The position numbers were made by a program, and so were the translations under genes. A stretch of DNA of 64,000 nucleotides from Mobula hypostoma (Eukaryota). The notes under the pieces were generated by a model. That model saw only the letters and a list, made by a program, of their open reading frames with translations, was not told where the DNA came from and did not search any database. Positions 1 to 22,803 of this stretch are shown here, in pieces (the first letter of the stretch is position 1; every line of letters starts with the position of its first letter). The stretch lies in the NCBI RefSeq assembly GCF_963921235.1, contig NW_026948143.1, forward strand, positions 62,001-126,000, in the 5' to 3' direction.

Positions 1-3000
1 CATAGAGATCACCGACTGTATTTACACCTTTCATCTTCCATTCTTTCCAGTACACCATTCTTTTCCCAATGCGTATCTCAGGGTTATTCCAGAGCGAGGA
101 GTATAACTGGTTTAAATGTGACATTCTACAAGCTTTATGAATTGTACTCCACACACTCCTTGAGTGAGATAGTATAGGATTTAGATTAGTCTTGTTTTCC
201 ACAAGTTGTGAAAGAATGTTAAGGGGAGAATGTGGTACAGCCAGGCTCCATTCTATGATTACCCAATCTAAATCAACATCACTCCTGTCCCAATGTTTAG
301 CTAACTTGGTCATTTCAAAGGATAATTTATATGCCCTGGACATACACATCTTACCCATTTTAATTCTGGGCTTCTTCTTATCCCATAGAAGATCCATGAT
401 AATTTTGTTGTATTGCTTGTAGATCAAATCTGGTACAGTATATTTAAAGGAAGCATCATAGAAAGATAGCTAAACTGAGATGCTATGGCCATTTTAGCTA
501 CATTGACTTTACCCCAGAGGGACAGTCTCAGTGCCCCCCACTTATCCAGATTATTTCTTATCTTACTCAATAATGAGTCATAATTTAAAGAAATTATTTC
601 ATCCAAATTCTCACTAAGTTTCACCCCTAGATACTTCATTCCAACTGGCACCCATCTGAAATTAAACTGAGATACTGAATTTGAAAAACATAGTTTTAAC
701 ATTGGCATAGCTCAGATTTATTGCAGTTGATTTTATAACCAGATGCCTCAGAGTATAATTGAATTGTTTTCATTAGTGGGGGGTAAGGAGTTAGAAGGGT
801 CGCTAATCAGTAATAAAATATCGTCAGCATATAACATCAGCTTATGCTCCTTTCCACCTCCCTTCACCCCTCTAACATTTGGATCTGCCCTCATCACGAT
901 TGCCAGCAGTTCCAAAAAAATCATAAATAACAGTGGGGAGAGGGGGCAGCCTTGGCGTGTACCCAGTGAGATGTTGAAAAATGGGGATATGATACCATTT
1001 GTAATAACTGCAGCCTTAGGGTTTTTATACAAAATTCTAATCCATGATCTAAAGATAGAGTCAAGGCTGTGGTTAAAAATATCCACTCAACCCTGTCAAA
1101 GGCCTTTTTGGCGTCCAGGGAGATGGCGGTAACTGGGATACTACTTGGGGAGTTCAGCCATATTAAGTGCAGTAATCTCCTTACATTGTCAGTTGAGGAT
1201 CTGCCTTTAATGAAGCCAACCTGGTCAGTATTAATTTTAGATGGCAATACTTTCTTTAATTGCAAAGCCAATATTTTAGTCAGTATCTTACAGTCCACAG
1301 TAATTAAGCTTATAGCCTATAATTGGATGGATCTATTGCCTCCCTGTCTTTTTCTGGGATCAACGATATTAATGCTTCATTAAATGAATTTGGTAAAGAT
1401 TCCAAATTAGGTGCTTCTGAATAGATTTTTGTTAGAATAGGAGCCAATATGTCCAGAAATTTCTTATAATATTCAACTGGGAAGCCATCCATGCCTGGAG
1501 ATTTCCCCTTTTTCATAGCCGCAATAGCCCGTCTGACCTCATCCTCAGTAATTGGGGCATCCAAGGACTCAGCTTGTTGTGGGGATAATGTAGGCAATTT
1601 TATGTTAGCAAAAAACTGATTTGGCTCCTCCTGGTCATAGTTAAACGGTGATGCATATAGATGTTCATAGAATTGTCGAAAGACTTCGTTTATTTCTTTA
1701 GATGATGACACTAATGTATCCCCTTTCTTAATTACAGGTATAACACTACTCGTATTCTGCTGGTTTAAGTATCGTGCCAGCAGCTTACCAGCTTTGTCAC
1801 CACCTTCATAGAAACTTGTTGTTAACCTAAATAATGCATATTCTGCTCCTTTGTTATATATGTTATTTAGCTGGAATTTCAAATTGCACAGATCTTTGTA
1901 TAAGTCACTAGCATATTGTCTTGCTAAAACCTTTTCCAATGTGGTTGTTTCTGTCTCCAGATTTTTTATTTGCTCCATACTTTCTTTCTTCCTTTTAGAT
2001 GTTTGTGCTATTAATTTTCCTCTTATATACGCTTGGTTGCCTCCCATACCGAGGACAGCTTTACCGTGGTCTCTACGTTCAATTCAGAAAACGAAGTCAG
2101 ATCCTCAGCCAACTTATCACTAAAATCCTCATCTTTTAACCGCATAGTATTCATTCGCCACCTACCCCTCCTTCCCCTTTCAGAATTTAAATCAATTTGA
2201 ATTTCAGCCGGTGCATGGTCTGGTAATGGTATTGGGCCAATTTTACAGTCTATCAGCTGTTCTACAATGGAGTTGAATATTAGAAAAAAATCTATTCTAG
2301 AGTAGGATTTATTTCGATGAGAGAAAAATGTATATTATTTTCCGGATGGATTCACCAATCGCCATATATCCACCAGACTGATATCCTCAATAAGTGGATG
2401 TAAGGCAGCCCTGTCCCTGGGTGCTGGTGATGTCTGAAATTTGCTTTTATCAACAATAGGGTCCACTACTTGGTTAAGGTCTTCTGCTAAAATTATTTTT
2501 CCTTCCTTGGTGCCTAAAATTTCATTCGCCTTGTTAAGAAAGTCTGGGTCTTCCTTATTAGGTGTATATATGTCACAAAGTACTACATTCACCCCATTAA
2601 TAAGTGCATCTATAAAAATTATCCTGCCTTCCTTGTCTTTAAATTCTCCAAGCAATAGAAAGCTAAGTTTTTTGTTAATTAAAATCATTGTCCCACTTTG
2701 TTTGCTATTAAGTGATGAATAGAATACCTGGCCCACCCAATCTCTTCTAAATTTCAGTGCTTTAACATCTTTAAAATGTGTTTCCTGGACAAATGCAACA
2801 TCAATTTGTTTACCTTTAAGGTATGATAAAATCTTTTTCCTCTTGATTGGGTTTCCACACCCATTGATGTTCCATGATCTGAAATTAACCATTTTCATGT
2901 CCTAAACTTTATGCACAAATGTGCAAAAATATACATTTTCCCCGATGGCTGAGTCTGGAATGCAATAACTCCGAAAAAATAGTCCAAAAAAACCTGCTGT

Positions 3001-3309
3001 ACTCTATCCCCGTGCTCAATTATTACCAACAAACACTGCAAATACTGTGCTCCCAAACAAGTAAACAACCAACGTAACCCAAAAACATATAAATAATATA
3101 TTCCTGCTAGATTAACCAACAAATAAAAACAAACAGGCAGGATAAACTCCACAAAGAAACAGAAAAGAAAAAGACACATGATATGGTTTGCAAAGTGCTG
3201 TGCCAGCTAGCAAGCTTCACCCTAATCAGACCGCTTCACCCAGCTCCCCACCCACCCTGTTATAGCTAAAAAGTTATCTCCACCTATCACTGTGATCAAA
3301 TCCTGTCTC

Positions 3310-4119
3310 TCAGTCAATGCCAGCGCCGCAGTTTTTCTGAATGAATTTCTCTGCTTCTGCAGTGGTAGTAAAGAACTTGTTCTTTCCTTTCCACGTGAAG
3401 CGTAGAACTGCTGGATAAGCGAGTGTGTATCTCATGTTGACTTTTTGCAGCATTTTCCGAGCCGTAGTAAATGCCCTCCATTTTTCAGCCAATTCTCTGG
3501 ACATATCTGGAAAGAAGGAAATGTTACATCCCTCCCACTCAACTCTTCTCTTTGCTTTGGCCGCTTGCAGCACTTTCTCTCTGGCCGAAGAGCGCAAGAA
3601 TTGTATTAGGACTAGCCTGGGGGGGCGATCCTCACCCGGCCTGGAAGCCGAGGCCCGATGCGCCCTCTCAATCTCTAACTCTGCGTTCAGTTCAATGCCA
3701 AATCCTTCGGACATGATTCTTTGCACACACTTAATCAGACCGCCCGTTTCCGCACCCTCCTTTAGACCGATCAGCCTGACGTTGTTGCGTCTGCTCCTGT
3801 TCTCAAGCTCCTTGACACGTTTCCATAGCAGGTCCAAGCATTTATTATTCTGCTCGCTAGCACCCACCAGTTGCATAGTGGTGTCCTCCACACTGGAGAG
3901 ACAGCCCTCGGCTTCCGTCAGCCTCTCTTGAATGGCATTGACGGAGCTCTTCAACTCCGTTGTCGCTTCCTTAATCATAGATACATCAGCAGTCACCACG
4001 AGTAGAGTGGAACTCATACGACTAACCTTGGCCAGTAAATTCTCCATGTTGGAGCCCTGGTCCGTTTGTGTCATTAGCGTGGCTTGAACTTCGGATTGTA
4101 GGCTCTGTCTTGTAGCCAC
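3310..4119 (-). CDS. L1 ORF1p (coiled coil + RRM + CTD, Transposase_22-like), open frame; true start uncertain
   Basis: Motifs LENRSRRNNVRLIGLKEG, IERAHR, PRLVLIQF, FFPDMS and LAYPAVLR are typical of vertebrate L1 ORF1p. Confidence 0.88.
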   Translation of the reverse strand: MATRQSLQSEVQATLMTQTDQGSNMENLLAKVSRMSSTLLVVTADVSMIKEATTELKSSVNAIQERLTEAEGCLSSVEDTTMQLVGASEQNNKCLDLLWKRVKELENRSRRNNVRLIGLKEGAETGGLIKCVQRIMSEGFGIELNAELEIERAHRASASRPGEDRPPRLVLIQFLRSSAREKVLQAAKAKRRVEWEGCNISFFPDMSRELAEKWRAFTTARKMLQKVNMRYTLAYPAVLRFTWKGKNKFFTTTAEAEKFIQKNCGAGID

Positions 4120-4280
4120 GTGGCTCGCTGTGATGCTCTTAGGTCACAAAGTTGTTATTAGCCCTTTTAGTGACAAAAACAGTTTTTAACTGCAGGACCA
4201 CTGTATCCGGACAAGGTGGAATAAATATGCTCTAATTAATAGAATTTCATGGTGGGTTGTCGGAGCTCCGCTGACGTGCA

Positions 4281-11530: not shown

Positions 11531-14500
11531 ATTTTTCCCTTTCAATATTTTCATTAGTTTCTACATAGAAGAAAATAGAGTACAAGCTAGTATATATAAA
11601 AGCTAAATAAAACCTACCAATTACATTATAACTATTCATAATAACAATCTTATTACCCCGTATTCATGTAGGTTAGTCAAAGTTATATTGAAATATACTA
11701 ATTTATTACAAAAAAGAGTCTAACCCCTACCAAGACCAAAGCTGTTTATTAATGAGAAAAAAAGGTAAAATACCTTCTCGTATAATAAAAATTAATAATA
11801 GCCAACATCTAAATTTAAACAACGAATTGAGCGTTTTGAAAGTTTTGAAAATAATTCAGAAAGGGTCCCCACAATGTTTGAAAGTCTTGACGAGATTCAG
11901 AAATTGAACAATGGGTCTTCTCTAAATCTAAGCATGACATAACGTCGCATAACCATTGAGCATGAGTAGGAGGAGAAACATCTTTCCATTTAAACAAAAG
12001 TGCTCTCCTAGCTATAAGAGAGCTAAAGGCCAAAATGCGTAAATCAGATGTCTGCAGCTTGATATCTTGTCCTGCAACAATACTGAATAGGGCCGTCAGA
12101 GGAGTAGACTTAAAATTGACTTTGAAAAGTAAGGAAATGTTTGAAAAACTTCCTTTCAATATTTTTCAAGACATGGACAAGTCCAAAACATATGAATTAA
12201 TGAAGCTTCTCCATTATTACATCTGTCACAGTAGGGAGATATATGCGAATAAAAACGAGATAGCTTATCTTTAGTCATATGGACTCTATGTACCAACTTA
12301 AATTGTATGAAGGAATGGCGAGCATATAACGATGAAGTATTAACCAGTTTAAAAATTTCATTCCAAGTTTCCTCAGATATTGATGTATGTAAATCTTGTT
12401 CCCAATTTTGTCAAAAGGAAGATTTCTCGTCTCCAGTAACATACCATAAATATTAGATATTGAACCATTATGAAAAGGTGTCAAATTAAAAATTATGTCT
12501 ATTAAGTTCTTATCTGAGCTTATAGGAAATGTGCATAATTGAGATCTTAGAAAGTCTCTGATTTGTGGATACCTAAAACAGTGAGTTTTGGGTAAGCTAT
12601 ATTTAGCTGACAATTGCTCAAATGAAAAAGGATTTCCTCCACAAGCATATCCCAAAAACATTTAATACCCAACACGTCCCATTCTTTAAAAACTAAATCA
12701 GTCATGGAGCTTTTAAAAAAATTAGAATAAATGGGACTAGAAAAGGAAAATCTCAATAAACCAAAATGTTTTCTAAATTATATCCAGATCCTCAGAGTAT
12801 GTTTAACTATTAAATTATCAGTTCGTTTACTTATAAGTAAAGGAAGTGAGGATCCAAGAAGAGGAATAATAGAAAATTTATTAACCAAGTTAGCTTCTAA
12901 AGAAACGCATACCTGACAGTCTACACGATTAATATAATACAGCCAAAATGTAAGATATCATATATTAACTGCCAGTAATAAAACCTAAAATTAGGTAAGG
13001 CTAAACCTCCAGGCTTTTTAGGTGTTTGAAGATGAACTTTATTTAAACAAGGATGTTTATTTTTTCCATATATAGGTGGGTAAAAAAGATTCAAGAGAAT
13101 CAAAAAAGGATTTAGGAATAAAAATGGGTAAAGTCTGAAAATGATATATAAATTCAGGTAGAATATTAATTTTAATCAAATTAATTCGTCCATTCAACGA
13201 TATTGAAAGAGGTGACCAATTTAATGATATCTTTTTTACATGGTTCAATAAAGTAAGAAAGTTTTTTTTAAACAGGTGTTTGTAATTCTTAGTGATTGTT
13301 ACACCCAAATAAGTAAATCGATTCCTTACAATTTTAAAAGGGAGATTAGTATTAATTGATACCAAATTATTTAAAGGAGATAATTCACTCTTATGTAGGT
13401 TCAATTTATATCCTGAAAACTGGCTAAAACAGGAGAGTAAAGAAAGTACGCAAGGTAACGAGGTCTCAACATTTGAGATAAAAAGCAATATATCATCAGA
13501 TTTTGTGGGTGATACCTCTCCTTAAAATACCACAGATATCATTAGATTCTCGAAAAGCAATGGCAAGGGGTTCTAAAGCTAGATCAAACAGCAGGGGACT
13601 CAACGGGCAGCCTTGTCTAGTTCCACAGTGAAGTTTAAATGGTTTGGAATTTTGAAAATTAGTAAGAACCCAAGCAGAAGGAGATAAATAAAGTAATTTA
13701 ATCCATTGAATAAAATCTAGTCCAAAATTAAATTCTTCTAAGGTTTTAAATAAATAATTCCATTCAACCCGATCGAAGGCCTTCTCAGCACCTAAGGATA
13801 TCACACATTCCAATACCTCTTGAGAAGGAGAGTAAGTAACATTTAATACACAGCGTATATTAAAATGGGAAAGTCAGTTTTTAATATGTCCAGTCTGATC
13901 ATCAGAAATAATAGAAGGTAAAGTATCTTCAATCTCACAAGCCAGGACTTTAGAAAGAATTTTAGTATCAACATTGAGTGATGAAATTGGCCGATATGAA
14001 GAGCATTCAGTTGGATCCTTGTTCTTTTTTAGGATAAGCAAAATAGAAGCTTCTTAAAATAATTGAGGCAAACTCCCCAATTTAAAGGAATCCAAAAAGA
14101 CTAAGTGTAACTGCGGTATAATTAATGAAGAAAAAGCCTTATAAAATTCTCCAGAAAATCCATCTGGACCTGGAGCCTTCCCCGAGTGTAATGAACGTAT
14201 AGCCTCAGCAATTTCCTCATAAGAAATGGGTTGATCCATCTGTTTGCAATTATCCGCAGAGAGCGCAGGGATATTTAATTGATCTAGAAAATTATTCATT
14301 ACAGTATTATCTTTAGGGGAATCAGAACTATAAAGTTTAGAATAGAATTCTCTAAAGGTATCATTTATTTCAGAGTAATCAGTTGTCCTATCACCATTAG
14401 TTTTGCAAATTTCTTTAATTTGTTCTTTAACTACAGAAGTTTTTAATTTGTTGGCCAATACTTTGCCTGATTTATTTCCATGAATGTAAAATTGAGTTTT

Positions 14501-17192
14501 ATCTTTAAGAGTTGAGTTTCAATTGGATATGTTAACAGAAGATCATATTTAGTTTTAACTTCAACACATCTTTTATATAAAACAGGATCTGGAGCTATAG
14601 CATATTTTTGATCTAATTGTTTCAATTGATTGGCTAATTCAATTCTTTCTTTATTAGCTTTATTCTTAACACTCGCAGTATAAGAAATAATTTGTCCTCT
14701 AATATAGGCCTTGAAAGTATCCTATATGATAAGATTAGAAGTCTCTTCCTTTTTATTCTCTTCAAAAAACAAAATAATATGCTTCTCTAGAAATTTTAAA
14801 AATTCCTTATCAGATAACAAAGTTGTATTAAAATGCTAAAATCTGTTGGGTTGAGGAAGACCAGGAAGTTTTAAAGATAGAAATATAGGAGCGTGATCTG
14901 AAACAGCAATCTCTTTATATTCATAGGAATGAACTGATGAAATCATTTGACTATCAATTAAAAAAATCCTGGAATATGTATGATGAACCTGGGGAAAAAA
15001 TGAATACTCCCTATCTGAAGGATATAAAAAACGCCAAACATCAACTATACCACACTTCAATAAAAAGGATTGAATAAAGAAAGCAGATTTATTAAGAGAT
15101 GCTGGTTTAGAAGATGATCGGTCTAAAATTGGGTCTAGCCAACAGTTAAAATCTCCTCCCATCACCAAAGAATAAAGATTCAGATCTAGTAAAAACAAAA
15201 AAAAACTCAAAGAATCCTGGATCATCTACATTTGGGGCATATACATTGGCAAATGCTATTAATTTATTATCTAGTTTTCCTGAAACTATAACAAAACATC
15301 GATAGTATCAGGCACTACTTTATGTTGGACAAAGGAAAATGTATTACCTATGAGAATTGAAACTCTTCTAGATTTGGCCTGAAAAGAAGAGTGAAAACAA
15401 AGTCCATGCCAACGGCTAAAAAAACGTAGATTATCACATTTGTGTATGTGAGATTCTTGTAAAAAATAATAGGGACCTTAAATTTCTTAATATAAGCAAA
15501 AATCTTATTACGTTTAACAGGGTGATTTAACCCTTTCATTTTAAAACTGAGTAAATTAATAGTCTGGTCCATTTTTAATATCATTTAAAGGAAGGGTTAA
15601 AATGTAAGTTAAAAACCAAGCCATAAACCTTGAGAAATGGTAACCAAGCAACAAGTTAGCTAAAAATTCGAAAACTGCTTCTGGAAAAAAAAACATACCC
15701 CCGCCCACCTCCCAAAGAAAGAAAACTGACCAATAGAAAGTTGGCATCTAAACTACGGACAACCCCCCCAAAAAACCTGGTGATCGCTCCAATTAGTTTC
15801 AAGGTTATTTATATTCCAACCTCTACTAAACAATACCCAAACAAGAGATTCAATTTTCGTATATCAAAAATACAGTATTAAAAAATACGAAAGGAAATTA
15901 GTTACAACGGTTTACCAAATGTAAAAGATACAATTATTCATACAGATAGACATTAAACATTTAATCTTATATCTTCATGGAAAAACAGACGAAGCAGTTA
16001 GCCTTCAAATTTAAAAAATCTTCGTCCTTCAGCATTCAAATGAAACCATACGAAGGATCCATCTTTAATGAGACTCTCAGTCAAACTGGGTAGCCAAGGG
16101 ACGGGTTAAAACCCTTATTAAAAAAATTCCAACAGAGCTTGTTTAAACTTAGCACATTCCTGTATAACCTCAAGCGAATAATCTTCGAGAATCTTAATAT
16201 TCCACCCTATAACCAATCATGCCCCTTCGATGGGATTTGCAAATTAAAAGTTTCTCATTTAATCTTGTGTCTTCATGTGGGGAGAAACTAAACAGCTAGC
16301 CTTCAGATTTTAAAAACTTTTGTGCTTCAACAGTCGAGCAGAACCATCTGAAAGAATCGTTTTTAAGTGTGATTCTGAGTCGGACTGGGTAGCGAGGGGA
16401 TGGCTTGATACCCTTATTAAAAAGCTCGGACATAACTTCTTTGAACTTAACACATTCCTACATAACCTCAGGCGAATAATCTTCAACAATTCTAATCTTG
16501 CGACCATTATAGTCAATCATGCCTCTTCAACAAGATTCACAAATTAAGAGTTCCTTTGTCTTAAATTCCTGAAAACATTATTACTGATCTTGGTCTCTGA
16601 CCATTAGGAGATCTAAACGCAGGAGATCTGTGAACTCGATCAATCATAGGCACAGACATCAAAATCTCTGGAAATAATTCTTGCAAAAAGTTTGCAAACA
16701 ACTCCATAGGATGATTACCTTCGAATAATTCTTCGAGACCCAGAACCCATAGGTTGTTCCTTCTACTTCTATTTTCTAGGTTGATAATCTTCTGTCTTAA
16801 CTTTTCGTTGGACTTCGATCACTTTTCACAAAGCTTCTGCAATTCATCCACTTCCGTTTCCAGAGCCGACATAATTTCCTCATTTTTTAAAATACGTTTA
16901 TCATGTTCATTAAGAGTTTGTTGAATAGAATCCAATTTACCATCTATTTGTTTAAATTCAGTGCTGAATTGTTGAAACTTCTCAGAGGCTTCTCGTAGCA
17001 AATCCACAATAGAATCCAAAGAAGCAGGAAGATCGTCCTTTTTAGTACCTCTGACCCTCCTTCCAGCCATAATGAAAGAATATCACACTTAAAAAGAAGT
17101 TTCAAGACAGGTTGGAAATAGTAAGATAATTAGAGTTGGAGCAATGGCAGATTGCTGTTACTCCATCAGCCACCACCAGGAAAAAAATCATA
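11531..17192 (-). mobile_element. Full-length (~5.7 kb) L1-clade LINE (copy 2), both ORFs disrupted
   Basis: ORF1 runs from 17070 (coiled coil, RSRRNN-like, CTD) to a stop at ~16296. ORF2 runs ~15570-11815 (KGLNHPVKRNKIF, MGGDFNC, GKAPGPDGFSGEFYK, AEKAFDRVEW, GTRQGCPLSPLLF, LPNFRFYYW). A-rich 3' end; imperfect TSD gacatt(a)tttt / ggcattttt. Confidence 0.95.
15961..16558 (-). repeat. Diverged ~300-bp tandem duplication of the L1 ORF1 C-terminal domain coding segment
   Basis: ttaatcttatatcttcatgg (15961) matches ttaatcttgtgtcttcatg (16259), and aaattaaaagtttct (16241) matches aaattaagagttcct (16541). Both copies translate to LLIC..RGMI.Y...I.EDYS.EV..EC.KFK....FNKG..PS..YPV...EG*. Confidence 0.85.
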
Positions 17193-18607: not shown

Positions 18608-19165
18608 AGAAACATAGAAACATAGAAAATAGGTGCAGGAGTAGGCCATTCGGCCCTTCGAGCCTGCACCGCCATTTATTATGATCATGGCTGATCATCC
18701 AACTCAGAACCCCGCCCCAGCCTTCTCTCCATACCCCCTGACCCCCGTAGCCACAAGGGCCATATCTAACTCCCTCTTAAATATAGCCAATGAACTGGCC
18801 TCAACTGTTTCCTGTGGCAGAGAATTCCACAGATTCACCACTCTCTGTGTGAAGAAGTTTTTCCTAATCTCGGTCCTAAAAGGCTTCCCCTCTATCCTCA
18901 AACTGTGACCCCTCGTTCTGGACTTCCCCAACATCGGGAACAATCTTCCTGCATCTAGCCTGTCCAATCCCTTTAGGATCTTATACGTTTCAATCAGATC
19001 CCCCCTCAATCTTCTAAATTCCAACGAGTATAAGCCTAGTCGATCCAGTCTTTCATCATATGAAAGTCCTGCCATCCCAGGAATCAATCTGGTGAACCTT
19101 CTTTGTACTCCCTCTATGGCAAGGATGTCTTTCCTCAGATTAGGGGACCAAAACTGCACACAATA
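18608..19165 (-). mobile_element. CR1-B 3' fragment
   Basis: YCVQFWSPNLRKDILAIEGVQRRFTRLIPGMAGLSYDERL...; (CTATGTTT)n tail. Confidence 0.93.
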
Positions 19166-19952
19166 ACCAGAGGAAATAGCAGAGGTAATTAATGAATACT
19201 CTACTTCAGTATTCACTGTGGAAAAGGATCTTGGTGATTGTAGTGATGACTTGCAGCGGACTGAAAAGCTTGAGCATGTAGATATTAAGAAAGAGGATGT
19301 GCTGGAGGTTTGGAAAGCATCAAGGTGGATAAGTCGCCGGGACCGGATGAGATGTACCACAGGCTACTGTGGGAGGCGAAGGAGGAGATTGCTGAGCCTT
19401 TGGCAATGATCTTTGCATCATCAATGGGGACGGGGGAAGTTCCGGAGGATTGGAGGGTTGCGGATGTTGTTCCCTTATTCAAGAAAGGGAGTAGAGATAG
19501 CCCAGGAAATTATAGACCAGTGAGTCTTACCTCAGTCGTTGGTAAGTTGATGGGGAAGATCCTGAGAGGCAGGATTTATGAACATTTGGAGAGGAATAGT
19601 CAGCATGGCTTTGTTAAGGGCAGGTCGTGCTTTATGAGCCTGATTGAATTTTTTGAGGATGTGACTAAACACATTGATGAAGAAAGAACAGTAGATGTAG
19701 TGTACATGGATTTCAGTAAGGTATTTGATAAGGTACCCCATGCAAGGCTTATTGAGAAAGTAAGGAGGCATGGGATCCAAGGGGACCTTGCTTTGTGGAT
19801 CCAGAACTGGCTTGCCCACAGAAGACAAAGAGTGGTTGTAGATGGGTCATATTCTGCATGGAGGTCGGTCACCAGTGGAGTGCCTCAGGGATCTGTTCTG
19901 GAACCCTTACACTTCGTGACTTTTATAAATAACCTGGATGAGGAAGTGGAGG

Positions 19953-22803
19953 TACAAGTGGAGGTCCAGTCCCTCCGCACTAATCCTAACCTTACTATAA
20001 AACCCGCCGATAAGGGGGGTGCTGTTGTAGTCTGGCGTACTGACCTCTACCTTGCCGAGGCACAGCGACAACTCACAGATACCTCCTCTTATTTACCCCT
20101 TGATCGTAACCCCACTAAGGAGCACCAGGCCATTGTCTCCCACACCATCACCGACTTTATCCGCTCAGGGGTTCTCCCATCCGCTGCTACCAACCTTATA
20201 GTTCCCACACCTCGCACTTCCCATTTCTACCTCCTACCCAAGATCCACAAACCTGCCTGTCCTGGTAGACCTATTGTCTCAGCTTGCTCCTGCCCCACCG
20301 AACTCATTTCTGCATACCTCGACACGGTTTTATCCCCCCTTGTTCAATCCCTTCCTACCTATATTTGTGACACTTCTCATGCTCTGAAACTTTTCGATGA
20401 TCTTAAGTTCCCTGGCCCCCACCGCTTTTTATTCACTATGGATGTCCAGTCCCTATATACTCCCATCCCCCATCAGGAAGGTCTCAAAGCTCTCTGCTTC
20501 TTTTTGGATTCTAGACCTAACCAGTTCCCCTCTACCACCACTCTGCTCCGTCCAGCGGAATTAGTCCTTACTCTCAATAATTTCTCCTTTGGCTCCTCCC
20601 ACTTCCTCCAAACTAAAGGTGTGGCCATGGGCACCCATATGGGTCCTAGCTATGCCTGCCTTTTTGTTGGCTTTGTGAAACAATCTAAGTTCCAAACCTA
20701 TTCTGGTATCTGTCCCCCACTTTTCCTTCGCTTTGGCGCTGAAGTTCGTTGACTTCATTAACTTTGCCTCCAAGTTTCACCCTGCCCTCAAGTTTACCTG
20801 GTCCATTTCCGACACCTCCCTCCCCTTCCTAGATCTTTCTGTCTCTATCTCTGGAGACAGCTTATCTACTGATGTCTACTATAAGCTGACTGACTCTCAC
20901 AGCTATCTGGACTATTCCTCTTCTCACCCTGTCTCTTGCAAAAATGCCATCCCCTTCTCTCAATTCCTCCGTCTCCGCCGCATCTGCTCTCAGGATGAGG
21001 CTTTTCATAGAAACATAGAAAATAGGTGCAGGAGTAGGCCATTCGGCCCTTCAAGCCTGCACTGCCATTCAGTATGATCATGCCTAATCATCCAACTCAG
21101 AACCCTGTACCTGCCTTCTCTCCATTCCCCCGATCCCTTTAGCCACAAGGGCCATATCTAACTCCCTCTTAACTATAGTCAATGAATTGGCCTCAACTGT
21201 TTCCTGTGGCAGAGAATTCCACAGATTCACCACTCTCTGTGTGAAGAAGTTTTTCCTCATCTCGGTCCTAAATGGCTTCCCCTTTATCCTTAAACTGTGA
21301 CCCCTCGTTCTGGACTTCCCCAACATCAGGAACAATCTTCCTGCATCTAGCCTGTCCAATCCCTTTAGAATTTTATATGTTTCAATAAGATCCTCCCTCA
21401 ATCTTCTAAATTCCAGCAAGTATAAGCCTAGTCGATCCAGTCGTTCATCATATGAAAGTCCTGCCATCCCAGGAATCAATCTGGTGAACCTTCTTTGCAC
21501 TCCCTCTATGGCAAGGATGTCTTTCCTCAGATTAGGGGACCAGGTGTGGTCTCACCAAGGCCTTGTACAACTGCAGTAGTACCTCCCTGCTCCTGTACTC
21601 GAATCCTCTTGCTATGAATGCCAGCATATCATTTGCCTTTTTCACTGCCTGCTGTACCTGCATGCCCACTTTCCTTTTTTAAAGAAAGGGGCTTCCCTTC
21701 CTCCACCATCAATTCTGCTCTCAAATGCATCTCCCCCATTTCACGCACATCTGCTTTCACTCCATCCTCCCACCACCCCACTAGGAATAGGGCTCCCCTT
21801 GTCCTCACCTACCACCCCACCAGCCTCCGGGTCCAACATATTATTCTCCGTAACTTACGCCACCTCCAACGGGATCCCACCACTAAGCACATCTTTCCCT
21901 CCCCCCCTCTGCTTTCCGCAGGGATCGCTCCCTACGCAACTCCTTTGTTCATTCATCCCCCCCCATCCCTCCCCACCGATCTCCCTCCTGGCACTTATCC
22001 TTGTAAGCGGAACAAGTGCTACACATGCCCTTACACTTCATTCCTCACCACCATTCAGGGCCCCAGACAGTCCTTCCAGGTGAGGCGACACTTCACCTGT
22101 GAGTCAGCTGGGGTGATATACTGCATCTGGTGCTCCCGATATGGCCTTCTATATATTGGCGAGAACCGACGCAAACTGGGAGATCGTTTCGCTGAACACC
22201 TACGCTCTGTCCGCCAGAGAAAGCAGGATCTCCCAGTGGCCACACATTTTAATTCCACATCCCATTCCCATTCTGATATGTCTATCCACGGCCTCCTCTA
22301 CTGTAAAGATGAAGCCACACTCAGGTTGGAGGAATAACACCTTATATTCTGTCTGGGTAGCCTCCAACCTGATGGCATGGACATTGACTTCTCAAACTTC
22401 CGCTAATGCCCCACCTCCCCCTCGTCCCTCGTACCCCATCCATTATTTACATACACACATTCTTTTTTCTCTCTCTCCTTTTTCTCCCTCTGTCCCTCTC
22501 ACTATACCCCTTGCCCATTCTCTAGGTTCCCCCCCCACCTTTTCTTTCTCCCTAGGTCTCCTGTCCCACGATCCTCTCATATCCCTTTTGCTAATCAACT
22601 GTCCATCTCTTGGCTCTATCCCTCCCCCTCCTGTCTTCTCCTATCATTTTGGATCACCCCCTCCCCCTCCCACTTTCAAATCTCTTACAAGCTCTTCTTT
22701 CAGTTAGTCCGGTTGAAGGGTCTCAGCCCGAAACGTCGACTGTACCTCTTCCAATAGATGCTGCCTGTCCTACTGTGTTCACCAGCAACTTTTATGTGTG
22801 TTA
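19953..22803 (+). mobile_element. Penelope-like element (Neptune-type RT + GIY-YIG), 5'-truncated, copy 1; split by CR1-B at 21007-21670
   Basis: IKPADKGGAVVV, YLLPKIHK, GRPIVS, MDVQSLYT, GVAMG; Cys-rich linker CKRNKCYTC; VIYCIWC...LYIGE. 12-bp TSD AGGAAGTGGAGG at 19941-19952 and 22804-22815. Confidence 0.93.
21007..21670 (-). mobile_element. CR1-B 3' fragment nested in the PLE
   Basis: ORF 21084-21500 is CR1 RT C-terminus; catagaaacatagaaa tail. Confidence 0.93.

What the first reader, a model, noticed from the sequence alone, without database searches (positions are those of the whole stretch)
15961..16558. L1 with a second, diverged ORF1p C-terminal domain starting in frame behind the ORF1 stop
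Seen: ORF1 ends ...ELLICES.RGMIDYNGRKIRIVEDYSPEV.ECVKFKEVMSELFNKGIKPSPRYPVRLRITLKNDSFRWFCSTVEAQKFLKSEG-TAG (~16296). In the same frame, 12 sense codons (LFSFSPHEDTRL) lead into a second copy: NEKLLICKSHRRGMIGY/GWNIKILEDYSLEVIQECAKFKQALLEF/NKGFNPSLGYPV.LRV/IKDGSFVWFHLNAEGRRFFKFEG-TAA (slashes are frameshifts). The period is ~298-300 bp. Known: L1 ORF1p normally has one CTD, which with the RRM binds RNA, and the inter-ORF spacer is non-coding. Inference: the two copies look too diverged for post-insertion decay, yet many differences look conservative. The duplication may therefore predate this insertion and belong to the active lineage. Possible roles are a stop-readthrough ORF1p with two CTDs, a separate mini-ORF, or a spacer that tunes ORF2 reinitiation. 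It could also be a dead relic.
Basis: partly seen in the sequence, partly recalled or inferred. Interest (0 to 1): 0.72.

Follow-up and report, generated by a model that had tools for sequence, protein, structure and literature searches.

The report
Dead gene duplicate lengthens jumping-gene spacer
A jumping gene (L1), probably from a ray, long ago doubled the last 300 letters of its first gene; the extra copy broke and now travels with the whole family as non-coding spacer, not as a second protein domain.

Summary
The duplication is real: a decayed full-length L1 on the minus strand carries two tandem copies (16555-16256, 16255-15958; 74% identical) of the ORF1 3' end, its stop and 40 nt of spacer. 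Copy 1 is the ORF1p C-terminal domain (CTD). It is not a second domain. The family lacks this locus's copy-1 stops and ORF1 frameshift, but keeps copy 2's first frameshift (5 of 5 listed contigs covering it). Readthrough would add 33 residues and stop. Copy 2 lost the residues shared with outgroups (19 versus 6, P=0.015), and the 'conservative' changes are no better than chance (P about 0.15). The '12 sense codons' are just the duplicated spacer start; an open in-frame join has about 14% chance. No homolog among 153 has two CTDs. Best reading: a duplication in a master element whose second copy decayed into about 300 of 723 nt of inter-ORF spacer. An RNA-level effect on ORF2 translation is untested. 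Modest interest: a spacer with a traceable origin.

The parts
11535..17183 (-). Full-length decayed L1 (ends approximate)
   Evidence: Read; RVT_1 hit E 5.5e-14 in 13496-13873; ORF1p matches
17071..17183 (-). Short 5' UTR; its start loosely resembles the conserved L1 5' motif quoted for lizard elements
   Evidence: Sequence; motif from passage of PMC5381506; resemblance by eye only
16296..17070 (-). ORF1 (coiled coil, RRM, CTD); broken at this locus by three stops and one frameshift near 16576
   Evidence: human ORF1p 2YKO E 0.0067; the frameshift and the stops at 16529 and 16460 are not the family state (tables 3, 4)
16256..16555 (-). Repeat copy 1 (300 nt): end of RRM, CTD, ORF1 stop, first 40 nt of spacer
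   Evidence: CTD match to 2JRB E 2.5e-5; 113 bits with a profile of 150 homologs that included this copy
16296..16298 (-). ORF1 stop: TAG at this locus, TAA in at least part of the family
   Evidence: loose-end consensus of 7 X5 contigs at 16300 (table 7)
16256..16295 (-).
   Evidence: Aligns with 15997-15958 behind copy 2; AUG list; 41% of shuffles are also stop-free
15958..16255 (-). Repeat copy 2 (298 nt): pseudogenised CTD with indels at 16208 (-2), 16128 (+1), 16068 (-1), TGA at 16083, terminal TAA at 16000-15998, then the second copy of the spacer start
   Evidence: profile hits in pieces of 21.8 and 3.7 bits; first break shared by other family members
15573..15957 (-). Rest of the inter-ORF spacer, T-rich (44% T), no likeness to ORF1
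11815..15572 (-). ORF2 (endonuclease-like start, reverse transcriptase), in many frameshifted pieces; the upstream ATG at 15584 is private to this locus
   Evidence: 15582 differs in 94-99% of depth in X1, X5 and X10 (table 3); the endonuclease label is from recalled motifs, Pfam gave no hit on the piece tried

Best explanation
In an ancestral, still active L1 of this family, a 300-nt block (end of the RRM, CTD, stop codon, 40 nt of spacer) was duplicated in tandem. The upstream copy left ORF1 whole and stayed under selection as the one working CTD. The downstream copy lay behind the stop, was no longer translated, and gathered frameshifts and substitutions in the master lineage, which went on to amplify it in the genomes of several related species. 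It now forms about 300 of the 723 nt between ORF1 and ORF2 and is most likely a tolerated passenger. Shown: family-wide presence, a shared frameshift, one-sided loss of conserved residues. Inferred: the order of events, and near-neutrality. Not resolved: whether the event was an out-of-register template jump during reverse transcription or unequal recombination between DNA copies.
For: Summed contig depth over copy 2 / junction bin / copy 1 / upstream ORF1: X1 5380/7099/4305/5046, X5 16148/26918/14415/17583, X10 1047/833/975/1102, X12 176/98/375/300 (presence only, not copy number). One listed contig bridges the junction with more than 31 nt each side (X12 record 20), and 'from_end' values of 59-75 at 16231 and 69 at 16279 imply more in X1 and X10 (my inference). 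No indel is listed at any copy-2 break, whereas the ORF1 frameshift at 16576 is seen in 48-57% of depth in all four runs (table 4). Of the 31 pieces shown (5287 not shown), 5 of 5 that cover the -2 break lack two extra letters and 2 of 3 that cover the -1 break lack an extra letter. Where the copies differ, the outgroup agrees with copy 1 more often in 7 of 7 outgroups (19:6, 14:3, 14:6, 17:5, 13:4, 11:6, 13:4; P below 0.05 in 5 of 7, which are not independent). 18 of 20 listed family differences inside the repeat move towards the other copy, leaving at most 19% family-level difference, residual distance about 0.11-0.16. 0 of 153 proteins with a CTD profile hit have two CTDs. [quoted passage not shown]
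Against: Only 40 of 143 substitution rows and 31 of 5318 pieces were visible, so no full family sequence or family-level dN/dS was obtained. The +1 break may be variable: 2 of 6 listed contigs covering it have no gap, 4 of 6 miss a letter somewhere. After masking listed private sites the copies differ more at third codon positions (12/12/22, P=0.03); this is expected from constraint on copy 1 alone, but does not exclude a spell of constraint on copy 2, and the masked set is biased. Contigs drop rare variants, so a rare subfamily with an open copy 2, or without it, could be missed. Persistence of the duplicate across four organisms with hardly any deletion is also what a weak benefit would give.
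Confidence: 0.75

Rival explanations
1. Copy 2 is dead as protein but is kept because the longer spacer, or its short AUG frames, sets the ORF2:ORF1 translation ratio or dampens retrotransposition to a level the host tolerates.
For: Kept in 4 of 4 organisms laid, with few deletions. The spacer has 14 AUGs at this locus, 9 in the duplicated part. In the megabat L1 a long spacer lowers retrotransposition about 26-40-fold, a shuffled one works 8.8-fold worse than the intact one, and removing its AUGs lowers the rate (PMC4072516, passages); the pig spacer is also inhibitory (PMC6501411, passages).
Against: The spacer folds no better than shuffles (z +1.17, 19 of 20 shuffles as good; this locus is decayed, so weak). 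Shared presence is also explained by descent from one master. No conservation test could be run.
Confidence: 0.12
2. The two copies come from two sister L1 subfamilies joined out of register by a template switch or recombination; copy 2 was once the working CTD of the ORF2 donor and decayed afterwards.
For: Third-position excess between the copies; dN/dS 0.48, bootstrap 0.26-0.89. Recombination between co-active L1 families is documented (PMC5872511, passages).
Against: dN/dS is not below the neutral simulation (median 0.69, P=0.13). The one-sided loss of residues shared with distant fish outgroups points to decay rather than to a second working lineage. No single-copy sister family joined across the unit within 82% identity, beyond 2 X1 contigs. 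The outcome today is the same: a dead copy in the spacer.
Confidence: 0.08
3. Stop readthrough yields an ORF1p with two CTDs, or copy 2 is a separate mini-ORF.
For: The unit is 300 nt, so copy 2 starts in frame, and the linker has no stop. A C follows the stop, which is known to raise leakiness (recalled).
Against: Frame plus open linker has about 14% chance. The -2 break shared in organisms A, B and E ends the frame 33 residues after the stop. The only AUG in copy 2's CTD frame gives 8 residues. A 7-nt deletion at the junction is tolerated in 3 of 4 runs (table 4). No two-CTD protein among 153.
Confidence: 0.03
4. The duplication is private to this locus, or an assembly artefact.
For: None left; this locus is about 7-9% from the family (89-121 places of 1351 at 20% share or more), which explains part of the 25% difference only.
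Against: Copy 2 and the junction occur in contigs of four organisms; residual distance 0.11-0.16 after allowing for private decay; asymmetric change.
Confidence: 0.02

Closest known systems
Vertebrate L1 ORF1p (coiled coil-RRM-CTD; mouse CTD 2JRB, human 2YKO)
   Same: ORF1 through copy 1 has this order and matches both structures by sequence.
   Different: An extra, broken CTD-coding copy follows the stop; none of 153 homologs has a second CTD in the protein.
Long L1 inter-ORF spacers of fish, frog, lizard clade 2, megabat, pig, perissodactyls
   Same: Length 723 nt, 35% GC and T-rich, within the 257-1032 bp range and about 34% GC reported for fish (PMC5381506 passages); spacer length is labile (PMC5872511 passages).
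   Different: The passages seen describe short T-rich or A-rich repeats in such spacers, not a spacer made from a copy of ORF1. Here about 40% of it has a traceable coding origin. Sharks and rays were not among the species in those passages.
Mobula hypostoma XP_062907615 (P0003), closest named protein
   Same: 62% identical over the CTD, E 6e-27; points to a ray as host (inference).
   Different: One CTD and a 17-40 residue tail in its isoforms; its DNA context could not be fetched.

Membership tests
L1 clade non-LTR retrotransposon | ORF1p with coiled coil, RRM and CTD | tested here: met
   2YKO E 0.0067 over residues 63-165; 2JRB E 2.5e-5; only weak coiled-coil Pfam hits, no Pfam ORF1 family hit
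L1 clade non-LTR retrotransposon | ORF2 with reverse transcriptase | tested here: met
   RVT_1 52.8 bits, above the cut-off of 29.6
L1 clade non-LTR retrotransposon | APE endonuclease at the start of ORF2 | tested here: inconclusive
   No Pfam hit on the one broken piece tried; motifs recognised from memory only
L1 clade non-LTR retrotransposon | A-rich tail and target-site duplication | tested here: inconclusive
   A-rich end near 11535-11560 by eye; no clear target-site duplication seen
L1 clade non-LTR retrotransposon | RT groups with L1 rather than Tx1 in a tree | not tested
   No tree built
Functional second ORF1p CTD | Open frame across copy 2 in the family | tested here: not met
   -2 break shared by 5 of 5 listed covering contigs; no restoring indel listed
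Functional second ORF1p CTD | Purifying selection on copy 2 | tested here: not met
   Outgroups side with copy 1 (19:6); BLOSUM62 mean -0.29 against neutral -0.56 to -0.59, P 0.14-0.16; 34 amino-acid differences against 35 expected. Family-level dN/dS not obtainable.
Programmed stop readthrough | Conserved leaky stop context and ribosomes past the stop | tested here: inconclusive
   TAG here, TAA in 7 X5 contigs and in copy 2; translation itself not testable
IRES- or reinitiation-bearing L1 spacer | Structured RNA or AUG-dependent effect on ORF2 translation | not testable with these tools
   Folding z +1.17 on the decayed copy; needs a reporter assay

The most novel reading that the evidence does not exclude
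An L1 lineage of rays gained its long spacer by duplicating the end of ORF1, and keeps the dead copy because its length or short AUG frames retune ORF2 translation. The family would then be a natural before-and-after experiment on how and why L1 spacers grow, possibly with an early phase in which readthrough gave a two-CTD ORF1p.
Probability: 0.12. Interest if true: 0.55.

Novelty: new variant of a known kind. Interest (0 to 1): 0.27.

Why it matters
How long L1 spacers arise and why they persist although they inhibit retrotransposition in culture is an open point in the papers read (PMC4072516, PMC5381506, passages). This family shows one route plainly: tandem duplication of ORF1's end, then decay. 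It also shows that a master L1 can carry 300 extra nt of dead coding sequence with several AUGs ahead of ORF2 and still amplify across species, which bears on scanning versus internal-entry models of ORF2 translation. It gives no new protein architecture.

Tried and rejected
No whole genome is held, so copies could not be collected and aligned. Three word-based protein searches found nothing (copy 1 'longer', 0 of 28 candidates; ORF1 N-terminal part, 0 of 41; alignment of copy 1 with copy-2 pieces, 0 of 20); they also missed P0003, so these blanks are weak. A 21-nt motif shared by both copies gave 1 locus in metagenome contigs, a chance match, and 0 in viral contigs. P0003 found no relative in prokaryote genome contigs (0 of 59 stretches). 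No RNA holder listed, so expression is unknown. Four proteins with more than one matched stretch (P0004, P0057, P0116, P0132) were checked: none has two CTD profile hits. Earlier findings of the scan: none returned. Literature: searches listed no paper on an ORF1-derived L1 spacer (two of them, 40 and 50, returned 0 papers); only four papers were read, as passages, and Repbase or Dfam consensus entries for rays could not be searched, so the structure may be on record there. The supplement of PMC5381506 holds spacer sequences that were not compared with their ORF1s (one search showed only the head of that file). A junction microhomology (TTAAA shared a few bases from the join) was seen by eye but cannot separate the origin mechanisms.

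Full report
Setting. The finding lies in a full-length L1 on the minus strand, about 17183 to 11535. ORF1 runs 17070-16296 and ORF2 15572-11815, with a reverse transcriptase hit. The copy is decayed: ORF1 has three stops and a frameshift, and ORF2 is in many pieces. The closest named protein is from Mobula hypostoma, 62% identical over the CTD, so the host is probably a ray (inference). No whole genome is held.

The observation. Two tandem copies, 16555-16256 and 16255-15958, are 74.4% identical over 301 nt, E 9e-48. Copy 1 matches the mouse ORF1p CTD structure 2JRB, E 2.5e-5. Copy 2 has indels of -2, +1 and -1 at 16208, 16128 and 16068 and a TGA at 16083. The unit is 300 nt, hence in frame. 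One in three duplications would be, and 41% of shuffles of the 40 nt have no stop, together about 14%. In the ORF1 frame the reading stops 33 residues after the ORF1 stop.

Is it private or family-wide? Twenty of 23 listed runs hold part of the stretch, from eight coded sources. Contigs of four runs from organisms A, B, C and E were laid on 15500-16850 at 82% likeness. All 30 bins are covered in all four, and summed depth over copy 2 and the junction bin is of the same order as over copy 1 and upstream ORF1, lower in X12. One of the 31 listed pieces bridges the junction with more than 31 nt on both sides; distances to contig ends at 16231 and 16279 imply others in X1 and X10 (inference from table 3). 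Joints that skip one unit (291 and 300 nt) occur in 2 of 1830 X1 contigs at depth 16-17, and in none of the other runs. The duplicate is thus the family's normal state.

How old is it? This locus departs from the family at 89-121 of 1351 places at 20% share or more. Of the 40 rows shown (103 hidden), 20 fall in the repeat, and 18 of them move towards the other copy. So at least 18 of the 74 differences are private decay, and the family's two copies differ by at most 19%; allowing 7-9% private change per copy leaves a distance of 0.11-0.16.

Is copy 2 alive? The family reads sense codons at the copy-1 stops 16529 and 16460 and shows two more letters at the ORF1 frameshift 16576 in 48-57% of depth in all four runs, so the method sees a family-wide 2-nt indel. 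It lists no indel at any copy-2 break. Five of five listed contigs over the -2 break, from organisms A, B and E, lack two extra letters; two of three over the -1 break lack an extra letter; the +1 break is uncertain, with 2 of 6 gap-free and 4 of 6 missing a letter somewhere. The first break alone closes the frame. A 7-nt deletion at the junction is present in three runs, up to about half of the depth in X12. Seven X5 contigs show TAA at the ORF1 stop (table 7), as copy 2 does, so the TAG context may be private.

Pattern of change. dN/dS between the copies is 0.48 against a neutral median of 0.69 for the same transition bias, P=0.13. There are 34 amino-acid differences against 35 expected, and their mean BLOSUM62 score is not above neutral, P 0.14-0.16. 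The change is one-sided: outgroups agree with copy 1 rather than copy 2 by 19:6 for P0003 (P=0.015) and in the same direction for 7 of 7 outgroups tried, 5 of them at P below 0.05. Private decay alone, or constraint on both copies, would be symmetric. With the listed private sites masked, differences fall 12/12/22 on the three codon positions (P=0.03), close to the 1:1:2 expected if one copy is constrained and one is free; the mask is biased towards well-supported sites, so this is weak. None of 153 proteins with a CTD profile hit has two CTDs.

How it works. Shown: family-wide duplicate, shared frameshift, asymmetric decay. Inferred: a master element duplicated 300 nt; ORF1 stayed whole through copy 1; copy 2, behind the stop, decayed and was carried along. 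The spacer is now 723 nt, about 425 without the duplicate; the other L1 in this window has one CTD and a spacer of about 410 nt. A jump of the reverse transcriptase between templates or unequal recombination would both do; the data do not separate them. Whether the extra length matters is open. The spacer folds no better than shuffles and has 14 short AUG frames at this locus. In megabat and pig L1 long spacers lower retrotransposition in culture, and in the megabat both order and AUGs matter (PMC4072516; PMC6501411; passages only).

Comparison and novelty. Long spacers of 257-1032 bp are the rule in fish L1 (PMC5381506, passages and head of one supplement) and their length is labile in perissodactyls (PMC5872511, passages). 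PMC5203782 (passages) lists ORF1p variants such as an extra RRM, not a doubled CTD. Eight literature searches (listings only) showed no report of a spacer built from ORF1, but subscription journals and repeat databases were out of reach. Verdict: a real, family-level structural variant of an ordinary L1; the second domain is a relic. Interest 0.27.

Noticed in passing
window 380-4220, minus strand: A second L1 of a distant family (ORF1 24% identical) with an open ORF1 of about 254 residues (4074-3310), one CTD, a spacer of about 410 nt and no internal repeat.
   Followed up: partly
window 16251-16257: A 7-nt deletion at the junction of the two copies in contigs of three organisms (0.8%, 11% and 53% of depth), perhaps a subfamily marker.
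   Followed up: partly
window 16014-16319: Two X1 contigs skip 291 and 300 nt, each with a short side of 28-29 letters: either rare single-copy elements, secondary deletions, or mis-laid pieces.
   Followed up: no
window 19289-20752, plus strand: A 487-residue stop-free frame that seems to join two different reverse transcriptases near 19945-19960 (CR1-like, then Penelope-like; labels from memory, untested), probably a nested insertion that happens to be in frame.
   Followed up: no
window 18613-19034 and 21006-21426: A 420-nt direct repeat, 91-94% identical, 2392 nt apart, that looks like the 3' end of one LINE family on the minus strand.
   Followed up: no
P0003 (XP_062907615, Mobula hypostoma): An L1 ORF1p-like protein annotated as a host gene with three isoforms and a short tandem repeat in its coiled coil; domestication or an annotated intact L1, not examined.
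   Followed up: no
window 16277-16256 and 15979-15958, minus strand: The last 22 nt of the duplicated spacer start are 20 of 22 identical between the copies and hold an AUG, a stop and an adjacent AUG; may be chance.
   Followed up: no
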